From: a virus
Taxonomy: Duplodnaviria; Heunggongvirae; Uroviricota; Caudoviricetes
IMG/VR virus record: IMGVR_UViG_2568526635_000004
Coordinates: 1-15,494 of that record
DNA: 15,494 bases
Direction: 5' to 3' (one strand)
A program made the position numbers and the translations under genes. Positions 13 to 15,397 of this stretch are shown here, piece after piece (position 1 is the first letter of the stretch; each line of letters opens with the position of its first letter). The notes beneath the pieces are model-generated. The model ran no database searches. It was not told the DNA's origin and saw nothing but the letters and a program-made list of their open reading frames with translations.

Positions 13-88
13 CCTCAAAACTGACCACACAACTGACCACACATTTCGTTGAAGCTCTACGAACAACGACGAACAATAACAAACAAAA
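13..88. repeat. Left copy of ~76-bp imperfect direct repeat flanking the element (putative attL); contains internal tandem CTGACCACACA x2 and GAACAA motifs phased at 10 bp
   Basis: Sequence 13-88 reappears at 15320-15397 with 2 substitutions and a 2-nt A-run length difference; every gene of the element lies between the two copies. Confidence 0.7.
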
Positions 89-763: not shown

Positions 764-1118
764 GGTGATTTTCACCATTCAGAATCTGGAGGGTGAGTTT
801 TCCAGTTTTCCCCAATGGGGGATTCTGGAACAATCAACGGGTTAGCGATTAAGCTGGCGAGTAATTAAACTGCGAAAATTTCGTAGTTTGTGACTATCTG
901 AAAGATAGTCGGTTGTTCCGGCCTCAGCCGTTGGCTGTTCCCGAAAATATCAGTCAGTTACGTTAACCGCTGATTTCTGCCTTTGGTGTGAATACCGTCA
1001 CTTTAACCTACGGTAATCGTTCTGCCTCGGTGCGCGTCTCTTCCGTGGTCATTTCGACCATGCACCACACGAAAAGGTGGAGTGTTTATCACCTCCCCTT
1101 CGTGGTGATTTCCACCAT
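764..1118. repeat. Three copies of a 15-bp dyad motif GGT(G/C)ATTT(T/C)(C/G)ACCAT at 764-778, 1047-1061 and 1104-1118; putative protein-binding or hairpin-forming sites
   Basis: Each copy is an inverted repeat (GGTGA/TCACC or GGTCA..GACC); the second and third copies differ by compensatory changes that preserve the dyad; the surrounding ~30 bp is also similar between copies two and three. Confidence 0.5.
810..845. repeat. 36-bp direct repeat, copy 1 (CCCCAATGGGGGATTCTGGAACAATCAACGGGTTAG), contains CCCC-AAT-GGGG hairpin
   Basis: Matches 1218-1253 with 2 mismatches; a second shared segment (TTCCCGAAAATATCA..AGTTAC at ~936-960 versus ~1286-1310) follows each copy. Confidence 0.55.
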
Positions 1119-1597: not shown

Positions 1598-3255
1598 ACC
1601 CCATCAAACGCCGCAAGCCGCTCTTTGTGGCTGTCGCTCATATCGAATGCAAAATCCTCGTGCTCTGCCTGGAATGTGCCAAACGCCATCAGCGCCGCAA
1701 CGCTCGGGTCTATCTTGTTGGATGATTTTTTCTTGTTCGGCTTGATATTGGCGTTTGCGTCACTCTGCATCACAACATTACTCATTGACCAGGCCAGCAC
1801 CGGATCACCACGATGCACAATCACCTTCCGGTTAACAAAAACTTCGAACGATTTCGCCGCCGGACTGAAACGAAGGTATGTTTGCGGGAACGGCTCCACC
1901 TCAAATCCTGCCCCCTGTAGCTGCGTCCTCAGGTGCGTGGCGTTCCATGTATCGAAGCCCACCAGCCTGATATTGAAATTCTCTGCATCCGCCATGATGT
2001 CATCACGGATACGGTCATAATCAATGCAGTCACCCGGTGTTGTGCGTATCCAGCCCGCCTTTACCCACTGGCGATAGATGGCGCGGTTTTTATTGGCGGG
2101 GTTCTGTAGCTGAAATTCCGGCAGATAGTGACGGGAAACCAGCATAATCTTTTTACCGACCGGAAAGGCATAGCACACGCTGGAAATATCGCTGGTTGAT
2201 GATAAGTCCAGCCCCGCGTAGCACTCCTGCCCGTATAAATCCGCCTCCGCGAACGTTCCGGCGCACTCCGCCCATGCACCGTTACCCATCCACGGCGTAG
2301 CCCCCTGACACCAGATATTGAATCGCTTGGTGAGCATTTCCACCCACTGCGACGGAATACCCCGCGCTTTCTGGATGGTTGAGGCCAGTTTTTCACGATC
2401 GACGGAAACATCGATATTGGGATTCGCCTTTATCCACATCGCCGGATCGTCAACCTCGCTTTCATCATCCAGCTCGTAAATCAGCACGAACATGGATTCG
2501 TTCACCTCTTCACCATCCAGTATCTGGCAGCAATAGTCGTAGTGTTGTTTACAGGCTGAAACAACGTTGCTCCCCGATGTGGTGATGGCAAATAATAATC
2601 CCTCCGGACGCGCCCCCATTCCCAGTTCAAGCGCGGAATAAACCCCGTTGTCAGGGTGCAGGTGATATTCATCCACAATGGCAAGACTCGGGTTTGTACC
2701 TTCAATGGTTGCCGCTTTTGCTGCCAGTGGCTTTAACAGGCTGTTGGTTTTCGGGTGTATCACCTTGTGTGCCTGAATATTTACCCGTTTTCGTAACGGT
2801 CGGGATAAAAGGCACATCTGACGCGCATCATCAAACACGATCCGCGCCTGATCACGACTCACGGCGGCGGTGTAAATATCCTGCTGCCCGTTTTCCATAA
2901 CCAGAAACCAGTTAGCCAGGATAGCAGCGACCGTGGATTTGGCATTTTTTCGCGGTACTTCAATGAATGCGCTGGTGTATTTGCGCCGTCCGGTGGCCTT
3001 AACCTTAAAGCCCAGGATGCACGCAAAGGCGAACTGCTGCCACGGCTCCAGCTCAATGGGGCTACCGCGCATTGCGCCTTTTACGTGCGGGCACACCCTG
3101 GAAAAGGCAATAAACCGCTCCACGACCTCCGGATCGAACGTGTAAAGGGGGTTTTCAAGGTCAGAAAAATACCGTTTAACGGCCTGTTTCAGTCGTTTAC
3201 AGGCCGTAATTTTGCCGTTTTTTACGCCTTCTGCGTACTCATGCCAGGCGGTCAA
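1594..3255 (-). CDS. terL: Phage terminase large subunit (ATPase plus nuclease)
   Basis: 553-aa ORF with Walker A-like segment (PRKNAKST) and overall terminase-like layout; TTG start at 3255 preceded by strong AGGAAGAGGA Shine-Dalgarno; overlaps terS end. Confidence 0.93.
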   Translation of the reverse strand: MTAWHEYAEGVKNGKITACKRLKQAVKRYFSDLENPLYTFDPEVVERFIAFSRVCPHVKGAMRGSPIELEPWQQFAFACILGFKVKATGRRKYTSAFIEVPRKNAKSTVAAILANWFLVMENGQQDIYTAAVSRDQARIVFDDARQMCLLSRPLRKRVNIQAHKVIHPKTNSLLKPLAAKAATIEGTNPSLAIVDEYHLHPDNGVYSALELGMGARPEGLLFAITTSGSNVVSACKQHYDYCCQILDGEEVNESMFVLIYELDDESEVDDPAMWIKANPNIDVSVDREKLASTIQKARGIPSQWVEMLTKRFNIWCQGATPWMGNGAWAECAGTFAEADLYGQECYAGLDLSSTSDISSVCYAFPVGKKIMLVSRHYLPEFQLQNPANKNRAIYRQWVKAGWIRTTPGDCIDYDRIRDDIMADAENFNIRLVGFDTWNATHLRTQLQGAGFEVEPFPQTYLRFSPAAKSFEVFVNRKVIVHRGDPVLAWSMSNVVMQSDANANIKPNKKKSSNKIDPSVAALMAFGTFQAEHEDFAFDMSDSHKERLAAFDGV

Positions 3256-3595
3256 GCTCGTCCTCTTCCTCTGTTTCAGGTGGATTTCTGCGGCGGCTTA
3301 CCGGGTCAAAACCCAGCAAAGAAGCCATTTTGATCATTATTCTTTCTGCGTCAGCCTTTGCGCTCAGGGCGGGGTTTCTGCTCTCGCTGCCCTGACTGTT
3401 AACAATGCTGAACCCGCGCGTGGCAAGGTCTTCGACGGCTTTGCGGTATATGGAGTAGTTAACGCAATACAGCTCCAGATTGCTCCAGTCGGCGGGGGTA
3501 AGGTCTTCCCGTCCGGAAAGCTGGCGCGATTTTTCCTTCCACTGCCTGACCGCGATTTCATCCAGGTAAGCGGGGGCTTTTGGTGGTCTTGCCAT
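3239..3595 (-). CDS. terS: Phage terminase small subunit, P27-family-like
   Basis: N-terminus MARPPKAPAYLDE typical of P27-family small terminases; an in-frame ATG at 3736 with better Shine-Dalgarno would add 47 aa, so the true start is uncertain. Confidence 0.78.
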   Translation of the reverse strand: MARPPKAPAYLDEIAVRQWKEKSRQLSGREDLTPADWSNLELYCVNYSIYRKAVEDLATRGFSIVNSQGSESRNPALSAKADAERIMIKMASLLGFDPVSRRRNPPETEEEDELDRLA

Positions 3596-3883
3596 GTTCT
3601 TTTTTCGCCCAATTATTTTCAAAAAAATTCCCGTGCACAAAAATTTGAGGGGGCGGTCGGTGTCCGGCAGGGACGGTTTCGTCCTGAAAACCACCCCCAC
3701 CCCCTCTGACGGCCTCACCAGCGATTGCGAAAACATTCCATGACCTCGCGGTCACGGTCGGTTAATCGCTTCGCTGTGGTGCGTTTTGTGCGCCCTGTCC
3801 TGTTGGCTTTGTGCTCTGTCTCCTGTGTCTTCCATGTGTCACGCTGCCTTATCAGTCCACGTATCAGCCTGGTTTGCTCCTGT

Positions 3884-4324
3884 TCAGTCATCATCGCCAT
3901 ACATCCAGTCGTTACGGTGTGCCGCCCGTTCTTCCTGCTCGCGATACATGCCCGCTTTACGGTTTGCTTTCGTGGCTGGATCTTCCCGTGTCGTCTTACG
4001 GTTGTGGCACGTCTGGCACAATGCCTGGTGATTCCACTCAGGCCAGAAGAGAACATCACCGCCGCCATTGATGGGAATGATGTGATCCACCACAAGAGCT
4101 GGCGTATAAATCCCCTTAGCCAGACAACGCACGCATAACGGGTTTTTGCTCAGGTACAGGGCGCGGTATTTGTCCCACTGTCGGGAATACCCGCGCGCGC
4201 GGCGGTGTCCCCGTCTGGCATCCTCTGCACGCCATGCAGCCCGCCTGTGCTCTTCACACTTGCCGGACTTCACGCGCTTATTACAGCCAGGCTCAGTGCA
4301 TCGCCTTAATGGTTGCCACGGCAT
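3884..4324 (-). CDS. HNH endonuclease (phage packaging-associated)
   Basis: Cys-rich zinc-finger-like N-terminus (CTEPGCNKRVKSGKC), VVDHIIP and NHQALCQTCHNRKT motifs; ATGA overlap with the upstream connector gene. Confidence 0.9.
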   Translation of the reverse strand: MPWQPLRRCTEPGCNKRVKSGKCEEHRRAAWRAEDARRGHRRARGYSRQWDKYRALYLSKNPLCVRCLAKGIYTPALVVDHIIPINGGGDVLFWPEWNHQALCQTCHNRKTTREDPATKANRKAGMYREQEERAAHRNDWMYGDDD

Positions 4325-8582: not shown

Positions 8583-8646
8583 GCTGTCTGTTCTCCGGTT
8601 TTAACGTTGATAGTTACGCTTGTTTACACCCTTACGGTGAAATTCT

Positions 8647-8769
8647 GCGGGTTATAATCGCACTTTTGCGGGTTATAACTGCCGTTTTGCGGGTTACGTG
8701 CGGGTTATTGATTTCCTTTTTATTCATACAGTTAATGCACTTACACACAGGATAACCCGCATAACCCGC
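8647..8769. repeat. Origin-like iteron array: 4 forward GCGGGTTA copies (8647, 8668, 8689, 8700; 21/21/11-bp spacing), AT-rich spacer, 2 tandem inverted copies (8753-8760, 8762-8769)
   Basis: Exact repeats counted in the sequence; located immediately downstream of the primase/helicase gene, with the AT-rich segment 8709-8750 between the arms. Confidence 0.7.
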
Positions 8770-11453: not shown

Positions 11454-11688
11454 AATCGCCCCCGCCATTTTCACAATCAGCAATCAGGATGGCTTTAGCC
11501 TCATTCAGCGCCATATCAGCGGTAAGCTGTGCGTAAGCCAGCGAATGCGGGATTATCGCCCCTGTATATTCCGTCTCTCTGGTAATGTGTTTTTCTGCGG
11601 TTGCTACCGTGCATGAAATATCAATCAGCGCGTGCATCAGCGTTTTGATGGCTTCGGCGGCTGCGTCCGGACGGGTGTTATTGCACAT
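11443..11688 (-). CDS. Hypothetical small protein (~81 aa)
   Basis: ATG at 11688 with GGGGG Shine-Dalgarno, overlapping the stop of the Ash/Icd-like ORF; the six-frame ORF extends further upstream but that part overlaps the neighbouring gene. Confidence 0.5.
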   Translation of the reverse strand: MCNNTRPDAAAEAIKTLMHALIDISCTVATAEKHITRETEYTGAIIPHSLAYAQLTADMALNEAKAILIADCENGGGDYAK

Positions 11689-12217
11689 GGCGCACCCCCT
11701 GACGAATACGGGCGGCGAATACAGCGACACAACCTGACGGGCAATGGTTACGCGCTTCGCGTTCCGTCCAGGCGGTGACGTGGATGATTTGGGACTCTGA
11801 CGCGCCAAAGATGATAAAGCGCCAGATAAAGGCAGTTTGGGAATGTACAAGGGTAGGGATAGTAGCCATGTTGGCAGCCTCTTCGTTAGGTTTAATAAAC
11901 CCACCGCAGGAAACGCCAATTTCGCTGGCGGTGGACTGTACAGGGTTGGCGTAACCGGTTAACGAAGAACCCGGCGCGGATTGCTCCGCCCCCATACAGC
12001 CCACCATTGATAAGGTGTGACTATCCGGCACAAAAAAACACGCAGGGCGCGTGTTGTGCGCTTCGTTAAATACCAGGACGCCAATCCCGGCACCAGATTT
12101 TGCTGGTGCGGGTAAATCATAGCCCTGGCTGGCAGTGGCGATCAACAGGTTTTTTACATCGGGTTTATTCAGGTTGTGCGAGTCCCGCCCTTGCGGGTGT
12201 GTGGTATGATTTAGCAT
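11678..12217 (-). CDS. Ash-family-like protein with C-terminal Icd-like (cell-division-inhibitor-like) segment
   Basis: Segments AKSGAGIGV, FFVPDSH, SMVGCMGAEQ, ANPVQSTASEIGVSCGG recall Ash-family proteins of P4-like elements; the C-terminal FIWRF...TEREAR...FAARI recalls Icd-like peptides (an internal ATG at MATIPTL could yield a ~62-aa product); start at 12217 has a GAGGT Shine-Dalgarno. Assignment is from memory of these families, not from a search. Confidence 0.5.
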   Translation of the reverse strand: MLNHTTHPQGRDSHNLNKPDVKNLLIATASQGYDLPAPAKSGAGIGVLVFNEAHNTRPACFFVPDSHTLSMVGCMGAEQSAPGSSLTGYANPVQSTASEIGVSCGGFIKPNEEAANMATIPTLVHSQTAFIWRFIIFGASESQIIHVTAWTEREARNHCPSGCVAVFAARIRQGVRHVQ

Positions 12218-12314
12218 AGCTACCTCGATACGCTTTCTATCGTTGGTGGTTAGAAGCCCTGCGAGTGGTAACGACACTTGCGGGGCTTTGCATTTATGCA
12301 CCTTGATAACCTCA

Positions 12315-12350
12315 AGGTGTGGCCCACTATATGCTTTAGGTGTGGTCCAC
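12315..12350. promoter_or_regulatory. Two operator-like 13-bp direct repeats AGGTGTGG(C/T)CCAC, each containing the dyad GTGG-N-CCAC, in the divergent control region
   Basis: Repeats at 12315-12327 and 12337-12350; immediately upstream of a TATACT -10-like hexamer (12381-12386) and the plus-strand small gene. Confidence 0.5.
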
Positions 12351-12416
12351 GTCAAGGGTTTTATTTGTGCTTTTTCTGTGTATACTGTCCCCCACCAATC
12401 CAACAGAGGAATAGAA

Positions 12417-12596
12417 ATGGCAACGGGTACAACAAACGCAAAATCACAAGCTCTAAAGGCTCGTGTACCACACGAAATAGTAAACGCCATGGAATCAGTG
12501 AAAGAATCAGGCGAAAGCACATCACAATTCATCATTGCGTCAATGCAAGGCGAGATCAAACGCCGCCAGCGCAGGAAGGCCAAAGAGCAGGAATAG
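12417..12596 (+). CDS. Small ribbon-helix-helix-like (Arc/MetJ-type) DNA-binding protein, candidate repressor
   Basis: 59-aa ORF (MATGTTNAKSQALKARVPHEIVNAMESV...) with GAGGAA Shine-Dalgarno 7 nt upstream; N-terminal basic beta-strand-like segment followed by helices; the only plus-strand gene, divergent from the replication operon. Confidence 0.6.
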   Translation: MATGTTNAKSQALKARVPHEIVNAMESVKESGESTSQFIIASMQGEIKRRQRRKAKEQE

Positions 12597-12729
12597 CCCA
12601 CCAGCAAGCCAGCACATTCACCATAATGACCCTCGGTTAAACCTAGAGTCATTGGTGCAAACCTGACAGATTGCCCACCAGCCAGCAAATCGCTATGATG
12701 TTCGGGCTTATGTTTAGTGTTTTCCCATT

Positions 12730-12758
12730 GGCGACCGCCCCCGGTCGCCTTTGTTTTA
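12730..12758 (+). terminator. Rho-independent terminator on the plus strand
   Basis: Perfect 8-bp stem GGCGACCG/CGGTCGCC with CCCC loop followed by TTTGTTTTA; ~135 nt downstream of the plus-strand small gene. Confidence 0.7.
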
Positions 12759-12776
12759 TGTGCCATATACTCCCCT

Positions 12777-13001
12777 TTACGCTGCCTTGCCTGAATTAAT
12801 GCGATCCCGGCTTTTAACCCATTCCATAACCTCGGACAGCAGCCAACCTACAGAACGACCGCCCAGATTAAGACGTGACGGAAAGCATCCTTTTTTCTCC
12901 AGTTCGTAGCGTGTAGTGCGGCACACTCCTGTTAACTTACGGCATTCATCCTCACGGATTACGCGATCTGATAGTGATTGCGATTGTTTGAGTTGGTTCA
13001 T
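12777..13001 (-). CDS. alpA: AlpA-family transcriptional regulator (excisionase-like helix-turn-helix)
   Basis: SDRVIREDECRKLTGVCRTTRYELEKKGCFPSRLNLGGRSVGWLLSEVMEWV matches the AlpA/phage regulatory protein pattern; ATG at 13001 has a GAGGG Shine-Dalgarno (the ORF track extends to 13037). Confidence 0.85.
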   Translation of the reverse strand: MNQLKQSQSLSDRVIREDECRKLTGVCRTTRYELEKKGCFPSRLNLGGRSVGWLLSEVMEWVKSRDRINSGKAA

Positions 13002-13079
13002 ATAAAAACGCCCTCGTTCGTTATCGTTCGAGAGCATTTTTTATGAGAGAAAATAGGTAAGCAATAAACAAAAAAATAA

Positions 13080-14075
13080 TTATTTTTCTTTATTTATTTT
13101 GTATTCGCTAAGTAATTTATAAATTTTAGGTCTAATTTTTTCTAAAAATGGTATAACTGTTTGTTCAAGCCCGAAACCATCACGCTCACCATTGGGATAA
13201 ATCATGGATGCAAGAACACGCTTTGGGACTCTTCTTTTTGTTCCAAATGTATAAAACTTAGCCAACATCAATAAATCCATAAGCGGTATAATTTTATATT
13301 TTATTATTCTCTCTCTCAAATATCCCCATGCCCGTTTGGGTTCAGGCTCTTCTAAATTGAGTTCTTTTCTCCATATCGGTAATAATTTTTTTAAATCAGA
13401 TAATATCTCATCATCTGTTTTTGTAATATCAAGTGACAAGTGCATTGCATAAGAAAAGCCTTCACTATTAGACTTCATCAATTCAGGCGCAACTGCACTT
13501 AAACTCTCATTTGCCAAAGTAAATAGAAGTTCATCATCATACTCAGATAAATAATCGACATCTTCAGAGCTCAACAATAATGTGCGCTCAGTTCCTGCAC
13601 CCGATGATGGTTTTTTCCAAACATAATTTTCAAGCATTATTCTTCGCAAAGGGACTACGGTTCGAGTTGATGATAACATATGAGGAAAAAAACCTTTATA
13701 CAGTTCTTTTCTTATGTTTTTTTCATAAAACGAATAGTCCGCACCAATATCATCGCCAATAACTGAAGATGCAAATATCTTTCTAAACCGACCAGAAACA
13801 AAAGCAATCTCAGTTTCTATTGATGGAATTTTTGAATTAATAATATCTTTTGTCTCATTCTCATCTTCTGGCAAACTCCTTACATCGATAAAATTCTCAT
13901 ACAAATAAGCCATAAAGTGTTCTTCATCTTCTACAACAAACCCCTTTATAAATCTGTTGTAATCCTCTCTACGCATTAACTGAGTAATCAATTCAAAATC
14001 ACTCATATCGGTAAAAACTTCATACTTCCCCAAATTAAAGCCCAATGCTTCTGCAAAATTTTTAAAAGAAATCAT
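13080..14075 (-). CDS. Hypothetical 331-aa cargo protein, strongly AT-rich, unknown function
   Basis: Uninterrupted ORF whose ATG overlaps the integrase stop (ATGA at 14072-14075); nucleotide composition visibly far more AT-rich than the rest of the element; no recognisable catalytic motif by eye. Confidence 0.8.
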   Translation of the reverse strand: MISFKNFAEALGFNLGKYEVFTDMSDFELITQLMRREDYNRFIKGFVVEDEEHFMAYLYENFIDVRSLPEDENETKDIINSKIPSIETEIAFVSGRFRKIFASSVIGDDIGADYSFYEKNIRKELYKGFFPHMLSSTRTVVPLRRIMLENYVWKKPSSGAGTERTLLLSSEDVDYLSEYDDELLFTLANESLSAVAPELMKSNSEGFSYAMHLSLDITKTDDEILSDLKKLLPIWRKELNLEEPEPKRAWGYLRERIIKYKIIPLMDLLMLAKFYTFGTKRRVPKRVLASMIYPNGERDGFGLEQTVIPFLEKIRPKIYKLLSEYKINKEK

Positions 14076-15292
14076 TTGCTAACCTTCAAAATAACAACAT
14101 TTTCATTATTACCAACTAACACATCGAGACGTTCAACCCATAGATTCAGAGCGTCCCGCTTCGCCTGTAAATAGCGTGAATGGTTATAGGTTTTTTGCTG
14201 ACCAGGCATCTGATGCGCTGTGATGTGCTCCACGATATGCGGATCGACACCTAAATCGTTCAGCATCGTTGTAAACGTGTGGCGAAAGTCATGCAGCGTC
14301 CAGTGTTCCTGGTTAAGCCGCTTATGCGCATTTCGCCCATATTGCGCTACCGTGGTATCTTTTTTCAGTTCTCCGAGTAACAACCCTGTATGCCGGTTCT
14401 GCTCCACCAGCTTCTGAATGAACGGCAAAATGCCATCGGGTATTGGCCTGAATATCGTTACCTTCGTTTTGCTGTGCTCTTTTGGCACTGTCCACAACAT
14501 TTCTTTCAGATCCCATTCTTTGATCTCTGAAAGTCTGACCTCTGCCGTTCTGCACCCGAACACAATCAGCAAGCGCATTAACGCGCTGTAGTAAGGCGCG
14601 AACACATCACCATCAATAGCGCGTAAAATTTCCTTTAATTCGCTGTTGCTGTGCACCCTCTCGCGAATTTCTGCTCTCTTACCCACATCGCTGACGATCA
14701 AATCGTCCAGGGCATTACTGAACGCGTAGCGCCTCCTGCGGCAGAACTTTAGCGCCTGTTTGCAGGTTTGCATGACGTGCCCTGCTGCTACTGGTGCTTT
14801 TTTTCGTACACGGTCAAAACATGCGATCCACTGCCTTGTATCGCATTTATCAAGAGGAATTGCCCCTATATGGCAAATGATGTGCTTATCCATACGTTGC
14901 ACCAGCTTTATGTAGTCTTTGCGGTTATCCTTCGCGTATTCCTCCAGCCAGTAGTTAATCGCCTCCTTTACCGTAACGGGTTTTAGTGATTCCTGTACTG
15001 TGGCGCACAACTCATAACGGGGGTTTTTACCCTCAGCCAGCCATGCCCGGCACTGTGTGCGTTTTTCCCTTGCGGCTTTCAGCGACAATTCCGGATAAGC
15101 CCCCAACTTTAGCCGCTCAGCGGCAACCTCACGGCCTCCCGTTCGATACCGGAAATACCAGGTTAATTTGCCGCCCTTTGAGTGTTTAATCTCCAGCCCG
15201 CCCCCGTCGGAGTAAAAACGCTCTTTTTCTGCCTGGACAGCCGCTAATTTTTTTAACGTCGAATCGCTCAGTTTGTTTAGTGCTTTTCCCAC
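14072..15292 (-). CDS. int: Tyrosine recombinase / integrase, P4 type (N-terminal arm-binding domain plus catalytic domain)
   Basis: 406-aa ORF; N-terminus LSDSTLKKL...GGLEIKHSKGGKLTWYFRYR typical of P4-like integrase arm-binding domains; catalytic HDFRHTF and C-terminal Tyr region; GTG start at 15292 with AAGAGGA Shine-Dalgarno; adjacent to the right direct repeat. Confidence 0.93.
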   Translation of the reverse strand: MGKALNKLSDSTLKKLAAVQAEKERFYSDGGGLEIKHSKGGKLTWYFRYRTGGREVAAERLKLGAYPELSLKAAREKRTQCRAWLAEGKNPRYELCATVQESLKPVTVKEAINYWLEEYAKDNRKDYIKLVQRMDKHIICHIGAIPLDKCDTRQWIACFDRVRKKAPVAAGHVMQTCKQALKFCRRRRYAFSNALDDLIVSDVGKRAEIRERVHSNSELKEILRAIDGDVFAPYYSALMRLLIVFGCRTAEVRLSEIKEWDLKEMLWTVPKEHSKTKVTIFRPIPDGILPFIQKLVEQNRHTGLLLGELKKDTTVAQYGRNAHKRLNQEHWTLHDFRHTFTTMLNDLGVDPHIVEHITAHQMPGQQKTYNHSRYLQAKRDALNLWVERLDVLVGNNENVVILKVSK

Positions 15293-15319: not shown

Positions 15320-15397
15320 CCTCAAAAAACTGACCACACAACTGACCACACATTTTGTTGAAGCTCTACGAACAACGACGAACAACAACAAACAAGA
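15320..15397. repeat. Right copy of the ~76-bp imperfect direct repeat (putative attR), immediately upstream of int
   Basis: See left copy at 13-88. Confidence 0.7.

What the first reader, a model, noticed from the sequence alone, without database searches (positions are those of the whole stretch)
13080..14075. AT-rich 331-aa orphan cargo gene inserted between int and alpA, translationally coupled to the integrase
Its base composition is visibly far more AT-rich than every neighbouring gene, implying recent acquisition from a different source. It sits where int and alpA are normally adjacent, its start codon overlaps the int stop (ATGA), and I see no known catalytic motif. Integrase-proximal cargo in satellites is a known location for anti-phage or helper-interference genes, so this is the best candidate in the window for an undescribed single-gene defence or competition function.
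Basis: partly seen in the sequence, partly recalled or inferred. Interest (0 to 1): 0.78.

Follow-up and report, generated by a model that had tools for sequence, protein, structure and literature searches.

The report
Integrase-coupled DUF6387 gene of a satellite
The AT-rich gene between the integrase and alpA of this E. coli phage satellite is real but is not an orphan: it belongs to a large family (DUF6387) that, in every island examined, sits directly upstream of alpA in a swappable slot, and its unknown function looks more tied to the island's own excision/induction switch than to stand-alone phage defence.

Summary
In detail: a 331-aa ORF (13080-14075, minus strand), GC 0.32 against about 0.49 in its flanks, with its ATG overlapping the int stop (ATGA). 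The protein is not an orphan: it matches Pfam DUF6387 (92 bits), a family of about 1,276 clusters at 50% identity. In about 30 non-redundant loci, a DUF6387 gene is always followed directly by alpA. These loci include satellites with different replication and capsid modules, EARL-type genomic islands and remote metagenome contigs. In most, int lies directly upstream with a 4-nt overlap. Low GC is a property of the slot in every element, so it does not show recent acquisition. Synonymous divergence does show that this cassette is 5-10 times younger than its int and alpA flanks. The slot is facultative. Near-identical int/alpA backbones carry long DUF6387, short DUF6387, an unrelated 257-264-aa family, or nothing. 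The anatomy matches the "integrase-overlapping gene" (iolg) described in Vibrio PICMI satellites, where deletion abolished excision. No defence-system, structural or catalytic match was found. Best reading (0.45): a facultative int-operon protein acting with AlpA/Int in excision or induction. Main rival (0.30): single-gene defence or competition. It is a new member of a known kind, and of moderate interest.

The parts
13080..14075 (-). DUF6387-family gene (331 aa, 'long' subtype) occupying the int-alpA slot. It has a conserved N-terminal motif (aa 1-45), an acidic variable middle (aa 49-212, pI 4.6) and a conserved basic C-terminal domain (aa 213-331, pI 9.7).
   Evidence: ORF; PF19924 at 92 bits; alignments; domain charge and conservation; AF2 model is all-alpha with pLDDT 73.
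14072..14075 (-). ATGA stop/start overlap between int and the slot gene (translational coupling).
   Evidence: Sequence. The same ATGA or GTGA junction occurs in L004, L008, L014, L018, L021, and in the unrelated slot family in L002 and L003.
14072..15292 (-). Tyrosine integrase with an arm-type DNA-binding domain; first gene of the int-slot operon.
   Evidence: PF13356 and PF00589. It is 97-98% identical to the integrases of sister islands that carry different slot genes.
13023..14071 (-). Swappable cassette: the slot ORF plus about 57 nt of 3' spacer. There is no nucleotide homology to sister islands inside it, and 91-98% identity outside it.
   Evidence: blastn breakpoints against L002 and L003.
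13004..13041 (-). Conserved terminator-like hairpin (A-run, 13-bp stem, T-run) ending 2 nt before the alpA ATG. The alpA Shine-Dalgarno sequence (GAGGG) lies in its 3' arm.
   Evidence: RNAfold gives -17.2 kcal/mol. The 96-nt context folds with z = -5.4. Across 12 distinct sequences, 96.8% of cells pair against 40-67% in slid controls, and 3 pairs show changes on both sides.
12777..13001 (-). alpA (AlpA-family regulator/excisionase, 74 aa from the RefSeq-type start). It is the invariant downstream neighbour of DUF6387 genes.
   Evidence: PF05930; annotation of L001; context tables.
15326..15395 (.). att direct repeat next to int; 97% identical to the copy at 17-86.
   Evidence: Family D2; the same 70-nt repeat is also present in L001.
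17..86 (.). att direct repeat at the far end of the ~15.3-kb island.

Best explanation
The gene is an 'integrase-overlapping gene' (the iolg class described in PICMI satellites) of the DUF6387 family. It is the last gene of the int operon. It is made together with Int while the satellite is integrated, through a stop/start overlap. A terminator-like hairpin insulates it from alpA. I propose that its product is a soluble, non-enzymatic helical protein that works with AlpA and/or Int in the satellite's own excision, integration or induction switch. It would act as a facultative modulator or specificity factor, not as an obligatory catalytic partner. The conserved basic C-terminal domain would contact DNA or AlpA/Int, and the acidic, fast-changing middle region would provide specificity. 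Shown here: family membership, operon anatomy, invariant DUF6387->alpA synteny, the facultative and swappable nature of the slot, and the young age of this allele. Inferred: any physical interaction, DNA binding, and an effect on excision or induction.
For: (1) In every locus with sequence downstream of a DUF6387 gene (about 30 non-redundant), alpA follows directly on the same strand. This holds at 25-48% identity, in satellites with four different replication modules and three capsid types, in EARL-type islands where no co-oriented int lies upstream (L015, L038), and in remote metagenome contigs. (2) Published gene tables show the same adjacency in ICEKp258.2 (PMC10763509) and a Serratia island ordered DUF6387->AlpA->recombinase (PMC9964261). 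In ROD21-like islands the RDF 'is accompanied by an 843 bp gene of unknown function' (PMC6035254). (3) The 4-nt overlap with int is conserved. (4) Identical anatomy is described for PICMI iolg: ATGA overlap, position between int and alpA, 13 unrelated families. Deleting iolg abolished excision, and the authors propose an Int/IOLG/AlpA excision complex (PMC10803314). (5) Many DUF6387 satellites carry the PICMI att sequence (the fis 3' end) just upstream of int. (6) The family is essentially absent from phage genomes and plasmids, from PADLOC and from NCBIfam. I never saw it outside this module, which is unlike promiscuous defence genes. (7) The architecture is a conserved basic C-terminal domain, with R236 and D267 invariant in 163 representatives, plus a variable acidic middle. 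There are no transmembrane segments and no enzyme domain.
Against: The slot is dispensable in nature. An integrase 96.8% identical occurs with a slot gene (L025) and without one (L022/L023, a 410-nt non-coding gap). A complete fis-site element (L077) has only 211 nt between int and alpA. Near-identical int/alpA backbones carry unrelated slot families (hhalign probability <1%). The identical slot protein WP_000775337.1 pairs with integrases only 68% identical. These facts argue against a tight Int-specific partnership. Recent variation in this allele is mostly amino-acid changing (13 such codons against 4 synonymous; int has 9 against 46; Fisher p = 9e-6). That pattern resembles arms-race genes, although dN/dS is known to be inflated at such short divergence. 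No DNA-binding fold or similarity to AlpA was detected. The PICMI deletion was complemented only with int and iolg together, so a polar effect is not excluded. I could not test whether any PICMI IOLG is a DUF6387 protein.
Confidence: 0.45

Rival explanations
1. Single-gene anti-phage defence, helper interference or anti-competitor function. The int-proximal slot would be a hotspot for accessory cassettes that are expressed constitutively from the int transcript in the integrated state, protecting the host and satellite from non-helper phages or rival satellites.
For: The slot is a true hotspot: it holds unrelated families on near-identical backbones, with precise cassette breakpoints. Discrete alleles show >=99% internal identity. 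This allele is younger than its flanks and varies mostly by amino-acid changes. Low GC is typical of accessory or defence cargo. Co-expression with int suits a gene needed in the quiescent state. Integrase-adjacent defence hotspots are established for P4-like satellites (Rousset et al. 2022, PMC9122126; position recalled from my own knowledge). PICMI satellites do encode a defence gene, up2, although at another position (PMC10803314).
Against: There is no PADLOC match at E<=10, no enzymatic or known effector domain, and no structural match. A family of 1,276 clusters was seen only directly upstream of alpA, and almost never in phages or plasmids. Known defence genes usually appear in many contexts. 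In EARL islands the gene is among the conserved backbone genes together with int and the RDF (PMC6035254, PMC10763509).
Confidence: 0.3
2. The DNA matters more than the protein. The slot would be an AT-rich insulator and regulatory spacer that carries the alpA promoter and operator and possibly nucleoid-protein binding sites. The ORFs within it would be weakly selected passengers.
For: Slot-less islands keep a 211-410-nt non-coding gap that is equally AT-rich (GC 0.33-0.40). All slot fillers are AT-rich whatever their family. The region conserved upstream of alpA is only about 21 nt plus the hairpin, so any alpA promoter must lie within the cassette. pN/pS is about 1 among recent copies.
Against: Long-term protein conservation is clear: a three-motif signature and invariant R236 and D267 across 163 representatives at 25-50% identity. 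The ORF is intact in all four islands and in all surveyed homologues. The stop/start overlap with int is conserved. These are signatures of a translated, selected protein.
Confidence: 0.1
3. Obligatory excision cofactor: a strict reading of PICMI iolg, with a third essential subunit of the Int/AlpA excisive complex.
For: The PICMI115 iolg deletion abolished excision, packaging and transfer (PMC10803314). The anatomy is identical here. DUF6387 identity partly tracks int identity (Spearman rho 0.72).
Against: Natural slot-less islands exist with near-identical integrases, as does the complete slot-less element L077. Three of 35 PICMI subfamilies lack such a gene. Unrelated families are interchangeable on the same int/alpA. 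Reassortment occurs within the family: int 85% identical against DUF6387 35%.
Confidence: 0.07

Closest known systems
iolg, the 'integrase overlapping gene' of PICMI satellites of Vibrionaceae (Barcia-Cruz et al. 2024, PMC10803314)
   Same: It lies between int and alpA and overlaps the int stop, most often as ATGA. It has unknown function and many unrelated families fill the same slot. Some elements lack it. Many DUF6387 satellites use the same att site, the 3' end of fis.
   Different: The host clade differs (Enterobacterales, not Vibrionaceae), as does the satellite type (15-kb capsid-forming PICI, not a 6-kb minimalist island). This island integrates next to rcnR, not fis. A requirement for excision has not been tested for DUF6387.
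The conserved '843 bp gene of unknown function' beside the RDF in EARL/ROD21-like genomic islands; ORF28 of ICEKp258.2 (PMC6035254, PMC10763509)
   Same: It is the same Pfam family (annotated DUF6387 in ICEKp258.2), lies directly upstream of the AlpA-type RDF on the same strand, and is uncharacterised.
   Different: In EARL islands it sits at the island end opposite to int, so it is not translationally coupled to int. It falls in the int-alpA interval only after circularisation. Those islands are mobilisable and pilus-bearing, not phage satellites. L015 shows it is not AT-rich there (GC 0.44 against 0.43 for the locus). It is only about 25% identical to the window protein.
Integrase-adjacent defence hotspots of P4-like satellites (Rousset et al. 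2022, PMC9122126)
   Same: Both are variable cassette positions next to a P4-type integrase in a phage satellite, with rapid allele turnover.
   Different: P4 hotspot cargo consists of recognisable defence systems that also occur elsewhere in genomes. DUF6387 matches no known defence model and was seen only next to alpA.
Stl-type master repressors of SaPIs (functional analogy only, from my own knowledge)
   Same: Both are int-adjacent genes expressed in the quiescent state, with highly divergent or unrelated alleles between otherwise similar islands. Such an arrangement could set helper specificity.
   Different: There is no sequence or fold similarity. No HTH was detected. Stl is always present and divergently transcribed from the lytic operon, whereas here the slot can be empty.
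yfjH of the E. coli K-12 cryptic prophage CP4-57, the archetypal AlpA locus
   Same: It is an AT-rich gene of unknown function and similar size (318 aa) lying between intA and alpA.
   Different: It is on the opposite strand, is not coupled to int, and is not a DUF6387 member.

Membership tests
Pfam PF19924 (DUF6387) | Whole-protein score above the curated gathering threshold, with near full-length coverage of the model | tested here: met
   92.1 bits against a cutoff of 28.9; residues 13-314 match model positions 14-247 of 258. RefSeq annotates the 99%-identical copies as 'DUF6387 family protein'.
Pfam PF19924 (DUF6387) | Family signature motifs (LLPxWRxxL, YxIIPLxDL, QTIxPF) and the N-terminal F..Y..Q..R motif | tested here: met
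   The window protein has LLPIWRKELN, YKIIPLMDL and QTVIPFLEK, and also F13, Y18, Q32 and R36. R236 and D267 are invariant in 163 representatives.
iolg class (integrase-overlapping gene, PICMI) | Start codon overlaps the int stop by 1, 4 or 13 nt (ATGA is the commonest form) | tested here: met
   ATGA at 14072-14075.
iolg class (integrase-overlapping gene, PICMI) | Located between int and alpA, co-oriented with both | tested here: met
   the same order holds in about 30 loci.
iolg class (integrase-overlapping gene, PICMI) | Required for helper-induced excision | not testable with these tools
   This needs genetics. Natural slot-less relatives suggest it is not universally required.
iolg class (integrase-overlapping gene, PICMI) | Sequence homology to one of the 13 PICMI IOLG/ICG families | not tested
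   The supplement gives only locus tags, and the sequences could not be fetched. 'DUF6387' does not occur in the paper or its supplements.
Capsid-forming PICI (cf-PICI) as the host element | int, alpA and primase, plus its own capsid, protease, portal, connector, HNH, TerS and TerL; no tail or lysis genes; about 10-15 kb; bounded by att repeats | tested here: met
   Pfam hits; 70-nt direct repeats 15.3 kb apart. Induction by a helper phage is not testable here.
Known anti-phage defence systems (PADLOC-DB v2) | Match to any defence-protein model | tested here: not met
   No family matched at E<=10.
Recombination directionality factor / excisionase (Xis/AlpA-type winged helix) | Sequence or profile similarity to AlpA/Xis, or a small basic HTH protein | tested here: not met
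   hhalign of the DUF6387 profile against an AlpA profile gave probability 0.05%. The protein is 331 aa with overall pI 5.5. No HTH Pfam hit.
Any solved or predicted viral fold | Significant structural match of the AF2 model | tested here: not met

The most novel reading that the evidence does not exclude
The int-alpA slot proteins (DUF6387, the unrelated 257-264-aa family, and the PICMI IOLGs) would be the long-sought helper-sensing or specificity layer of Gram-negative satellites. They would be made constitutively with Int, and each allele would recognise a different phage cue and license AlpA-dependent induction. This could work by relieving the terminator/SD-sequestering hairpin in front of alpA, or by joining the excisive complex. 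That would explain why alleles are diverse, swappable, fast-evolving and always glued to alpA. Functionally this would be a Gram-negative counterpart of the SaPI Stl system.
Probability: 0.15. Interest if true: 0.75.

Novelty: new member of a known kind. Interest (0 to 1): 0.4.

Why it matters
Three literatures each mention a nameless gene beside alpA without connecting them: PICMI iolg, the 'conserved 843-bp gene' of EARL/ROD21 islands (including ICEKp258.2 of the epidemic Klebsiella ST258), and PICI/cf-PICI maps that draw int and alpA as adjacent. This analysis shows that many of these genes belong to one large family, DUF6387, whose only invariant feature is that it directly precedes alpA. 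It also shows that E. coli offers natural near-isogenic islands with four slot states: long DUF6387, short DUF6387, an unrelated family, and empty. That makes the open question raised by the PICMI authors (how AlpA, Int and 'probably IOLG' interact) directly testable in a tractable host. It would also decide between a life-cycle role and a defence role for a gene class found in hundreds of E. coli genomes. The gene itself is not a surprise to a specialist, and no mechanism is established, so the interest is moderate.

Full report
1. THE OBSERVATION. The window contains a 331-aa ORF on the minus strand at 13080..14075. Its ATG overlaps the TGA of the upstream integrase gene (14072..15292) as ATGA, and a GAAGG motif lies 7 nt before the ATG. 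GC is 0.324 (GC3 0.253), against 0.487 for int, 0.479 for alpA and 0.501 for the window. The flanking genes are a P4-type tyrosine integrase (PF13356 and PF00589) and an AlpA-family protein (PF05930). The rest of the window encodes DUF4222, a DUF927 primase, SSB, an HK97-type capsid, a prohead protease, a portal, a connector, HNH, TerS and TerL, all on the minus strand. A 70-nt direct repeat bounds the element at 17-86 and 15326-15395. This is a complete ~15.3-kb capsid-forming PICI-type satellite. In its closest relatives it lies next to rcnR in E. coli.

2. NOT AN ORPHAN. The protein matches Pfam PF19924 (DUF6387) at 92 bits, against a cutoff of 28.9. A word-indexed search found homologues at 25-49% identity in Cronobacter, Citrobacter, Pectobacterium, Providencia and Rahnella. 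An exhaustive profile search found 1,276 clusters (50% identity) at E<=1e-3 and 453 at E<=1e-10. Named members come from Yersinia and Serratia, and an unnamed cluster includes a TARA marine metagenome sequence. PADLOC and NCBIfam gave nothing, and PHROGs gave only a family of unknown function. The family is nearly absent from deposited phage genomes (2 marginal records) and from plasmids (4 records, at least one of them an island or satellite).

3. WHAT THE PROTEIN LOOKS LIKE. It is soluble, with no hydrophobic segment, and all-alpha in an AlphaFold2 model of moderate confidence (pLDDT 73; the N-terminal 40 and C-terminal ~80 residues score about 90).
- A short N-terminal motif is conserved (P/W/F13/Y18/Q32/R36).
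- The middle is acidic (pI 4.6) and poorly conserved. In this 'long' subtype it carries an insertion (about residues 61-120) that is gapped in most of the family.
- The C-terminal domain is basic (pI 9.7) and well conserved. It carries LLPxWRxxL, YxIIPLxDL and QTIxPF, and R236 and D267 are invariant in 163 representatives.
- Longer members show no informative domain fusion.

4. GENOMIC CONTEXT: THE DECISIVE PATTERN. I collected loci through exact-protein look-ups, annotated records, IMG/VR and metagenome scans. I annotated them with HMMs built from the Int, DUF6387 and AlpA sequences gathered here.
- Wherever sequence continues downstream of a DUF6387 gene, alpA follows directly on the same strand. 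This covers about 30 non-redundant loci.
- The elements include satellites whose replication genes are DUF927, DUF5906, D5_N/Pox_D5 or AAA_25. Their capsids are HK97-type, lambda-E-type or protease-fused.
- They also include a Xenorhabdus contig, a Salmonella houtenae island at tRNA-Leu, an element at the ssrA/smpB site, and remote metagenome contigs whose integrases are only distantly related (L055, L056, L058, L059).
- In most loci int lies directly upstream, with a 4-nt ATGA/GTGA overlap.
- In two loci (L015, an EARL-type island beside mtfA, and L038) no co-oriented int lies upstream, but alpA is still the next gene.
- The literature agrees. ICEKp258.2 of Klebsiella ST258 ends with AlpA and a 'DUF6387 family protein' (PMC10763509). 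A Serratia island has DUF6387->AlpA->recombinase (PMC9964261). [quoted passage not shown]
The invariant partner of DUF6387 is therefore alpA, and coupling to int is the usual arrangement in satellites.

5. THE SLOT IS A FACULTATIVE, SWAPPABLE CASSETTE POSITION. Of 5,426 complete E. coli genomes, 554 match the int/alpA region, but only 3 carry this gene.
- Sister islands with int 97-98% identical carry one of two alternatives. One is a 'short' DUF6387 (284 aa, 36% identical; 50 genomes). The other is an unrelated family of 257-264 aa (55 and 11 genomes for two alleles). The unrelated family also overlaps the int stop by ATGA and is also AT-rich.
- Profile-profile comparison gives <1% probability of homology between the two families.
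- Homology between the window and these islands stops at 14072-14082 and resumes at 13022. The exchanged unit is therefore the ORF plus about 57 nt.
- Islands at the cspD/yljB site show the slot can be empty. L023 (no slot gene, a 410-nt non-coding gap at GC 0.33) and L025 (257-aa slot gene) have integrases 96.8% identical except for the last ~20 residues.
- The L025 slot protein is 100% identical to that of L003. L003 has an integrase only 68% identical and a different att site, yet it shares the same integrase tail and a 97%-identical alpA. The block made of the int 3' tail, the slot gene and alpA thus moves between integrase lineages.
- An unbiased pull of fis-site satellites from IMG/VR gave slots holding DUF6387 (L076), the alternative family (L075, and weakly L071), or nothing. 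The empty cases were L068 and the complete 9.4-kb element L077, which has both att repeats.
- K-12 CP4-57 also has an AT-rich unknown gene (yfjH) between intA and alpA, but it is on the other strand and unrelated. EcCIMP1 also has a small unknown gene between int and alpA (PMC11773190).

6. BASE COMPOSITION AND AGE. Low GC is not peculiar to this copy. DUF6387 genes that lie between int and alpA have GC 0.28-0.38, against 0.36-0.57 for their own int, in eight loci from different genera. The unrelated family has 0.32-0.38. AT-richness persists across 25-48% protein divergence, so it cannot be read as a sign of recent arrival.
- A better clock is synonymous divergence among the four islands that carry this allele (window, L001, L060, L061). 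Their downstream replication and packaging modules all differ.
- pS is 0.005-0.020 for the DUF6387 gene, 0.04-0.12 for int and 0.02-0.17 for alpA.
- Variable codons are 4 synonymous and 13 amino-acid changing in DUF6387, against 46 and 9 in int (Fisher p = 9e-6).
The cassette is therefore much younger than the backbones it sits in, and its recent changes are mostly replacements. All four copies are intact. This pattern fits diversifying or relaxed selection. dN/dS is known to be inflated at such low divergence, and the deep conservation of the C-terminal domain shows long-term purifying selection.

7. COUPLING TO ALPA. Directly before the alpA ATG (13001) lies a conserved hairpin at 13004-13041: an A-run, a 13-bp stem with a GC core, a T-run, then 2 nt and the ATG. 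The alpA Shine-Dalgarno sequence (GAGGG) is in the 3' arm.
- It folds at -17 kcal/mol, and the 96-nt context has z = -5.4.
- In 12 distinct sequences 96.8% of cells pair, against 40-67% in slid controls, and three pairs carry compensatory double changes.
- Among slot-bearing Enterobacteriaceae-type satellites with either slot family, 22 of 24 tested have it. My search did not detect it in L036 or L075.
- It is absent from the slot-less islands and from the more remote loci.
It looks like the terminator of the int-slot operon, and it would also mask the alpA ribosome-binding site on any read-through transcript. AlpA is reported to activate its own promoter (PMC10111431). Any such promoter must lie inside the variable cassette or start within the hairpin. 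This part is inference from sequence.

8. COMPARISON WITH WHAT IS KNOWN. The anatomy is that of iolg, the 'integrase overlapping gene' of Vibrio PICMI satellites.
- It lies between int and alpA with ATGA as the commonest overlap, and 13 unrelated families of unknown function fill the slot. Three of 35 subfamilies have no such gene.
- Deleting iolg in PICMI115 abolished excision, packaging and transfer. The deletion was complemented with int and iolg together. The authors propose that constitutive Int and IOLG, plus phage-induced AlpA, form the excision complex (PMC10803314).
- The PICMI att repeat (AATACGGCATGAA..., the 3' end of fis) lies 160-200 bp upstream of int in 15 of my DUF6387 locus entries. 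This agrees with the known class of enterobacterial 'fis PICIs' (PMC10111431). The window's island uses a different site.
- I could not test whether any PICMI IOLG is a DUF6387 protein.
- The library search for 'DUF6387' returned only the two gene tables cited above.

9. VERDICT. The gene is a real, translated, selected member of a large but uncharacterised family. It occupies a described but unexplained position. Strict linkage to alpA across unrelated elements, absence from other contexts and from defence catalogues, non-enzymatic architecture and the PICMI genetics favour a role in the element's own recombination or induction switch (0.45). The facultative, swappable, fast-changing nature of the slot keeps a defence or competition role alive (0.30). 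It also argues against an obligatory excision subunit (0.07). A mainly DNA-level role as an insulator or promoter carrier is a minor possibility (0.10). Novelty: a new member of a known kind. Interest: about 0.4. The value lies in linking three literatures and in pointing to a natural allelic series in E. coli that makes the question testable.

Noticed in passing
window 13004-13041 (minus strand), ending 2 nt before the alpA ATG at 13001: A conserved intrinsic-terminator-like hairpin (A-run, 13-bp stem, T-run) holds the alpA Shine-Dalgarno sequence in its 3' arm. Its arms covary across satellites. It occurs after both unrelated slot families and is absent from slot-less islands. It may terminate the int-slot operon and gate alpA expression.
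   Followed up: yes
window 11924-12011 and 12033-12109 (minus strand): Rfam matches to C4 antisense RNA (75 bits) and isrK (80 bits) point to a P4/P1-like RNA immunity region downstream of alpA. They coincide with the 'Phage_ASH' Pfam hit inside a 362-aa ORF (11678-12766). That ORF is probably not a real protein over its full length, because relatives annotate small genes there instead.
   Followed up: partly
window 17-86 and 15326-15395: A 70-nt direct repeat (97% identical) bounds the 15.3-kb island. It contains an internal doubled ACTGACCACACA motif that could be an integrase arm-type or accessory-protein site. The same repeat flanks the related island in L001.
   Followed up: partly
L003 against L025 against L023 (E. 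coli islands at the rcnR and cspD/yljB sites): The last ~20 codons of int, the slot gene and alpA move together as one block between integrase lineages that are only 68% identical. The integrase C-terminal tail is therefore part of the exchanged cassette.
   Followed up: partly
window, L001, L060, L061: The same int-DUF6387-alpA triad (at least 97.5% nucleotide identity) heads four satellites with different downstream modules. These are: DUF927 primase with a full HK97 head and packaging set; DUF927 primase with ProQ/PerC; P4-family primase with ProQ/PerC; and RepA helicase with lambda-type capsid and decoration genes. This is strong modular mosaicism at one att site.
   Followed up: partly
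L005 6001-7678, L007, and L011 5638-7315 (Providencia): Two DUF6387 paralogues sit in tandem between int and alpA. The second overlaps the end of the first by 17 nt in the called genes (L005 6851-6867).
   Followed up: no
window 802-845, 1210-1253, 1264-1307: Three copies of a 44-nt repeat (64-89% identical) lie just beyond the terminase large-subunit gene, near the att-distal end. They could be a packaging (cos/pac) or regulatory site.
   Followed up: no
window 8643-8684: Two tandem 21-nt repeats (TTCTGCGGGTTATAATCGCAC) lie between the SSB gene and the primase gene. They are candidate origin iterons.
   Followed up: no
L058 1272-2149, and the Serratia island in PMC9964261: In some elements the order is DUF6387->alpA->integrase/recombinase, so a recombinase gene follows alpA. 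This shows that linkage to alpA is kept when the position of int changes.
   Followed up: no
L062 (E. coli K-12 CP4-57) 3145-4101: yfjH is an uncharacterised AT-rich 318-aa gene lying between intA and alpA on the opposite strand. It is unrelated to DUF6387. The int-alpA interval is therefore occupied even in the archetypal AlpA locus.
   Followed up: partly
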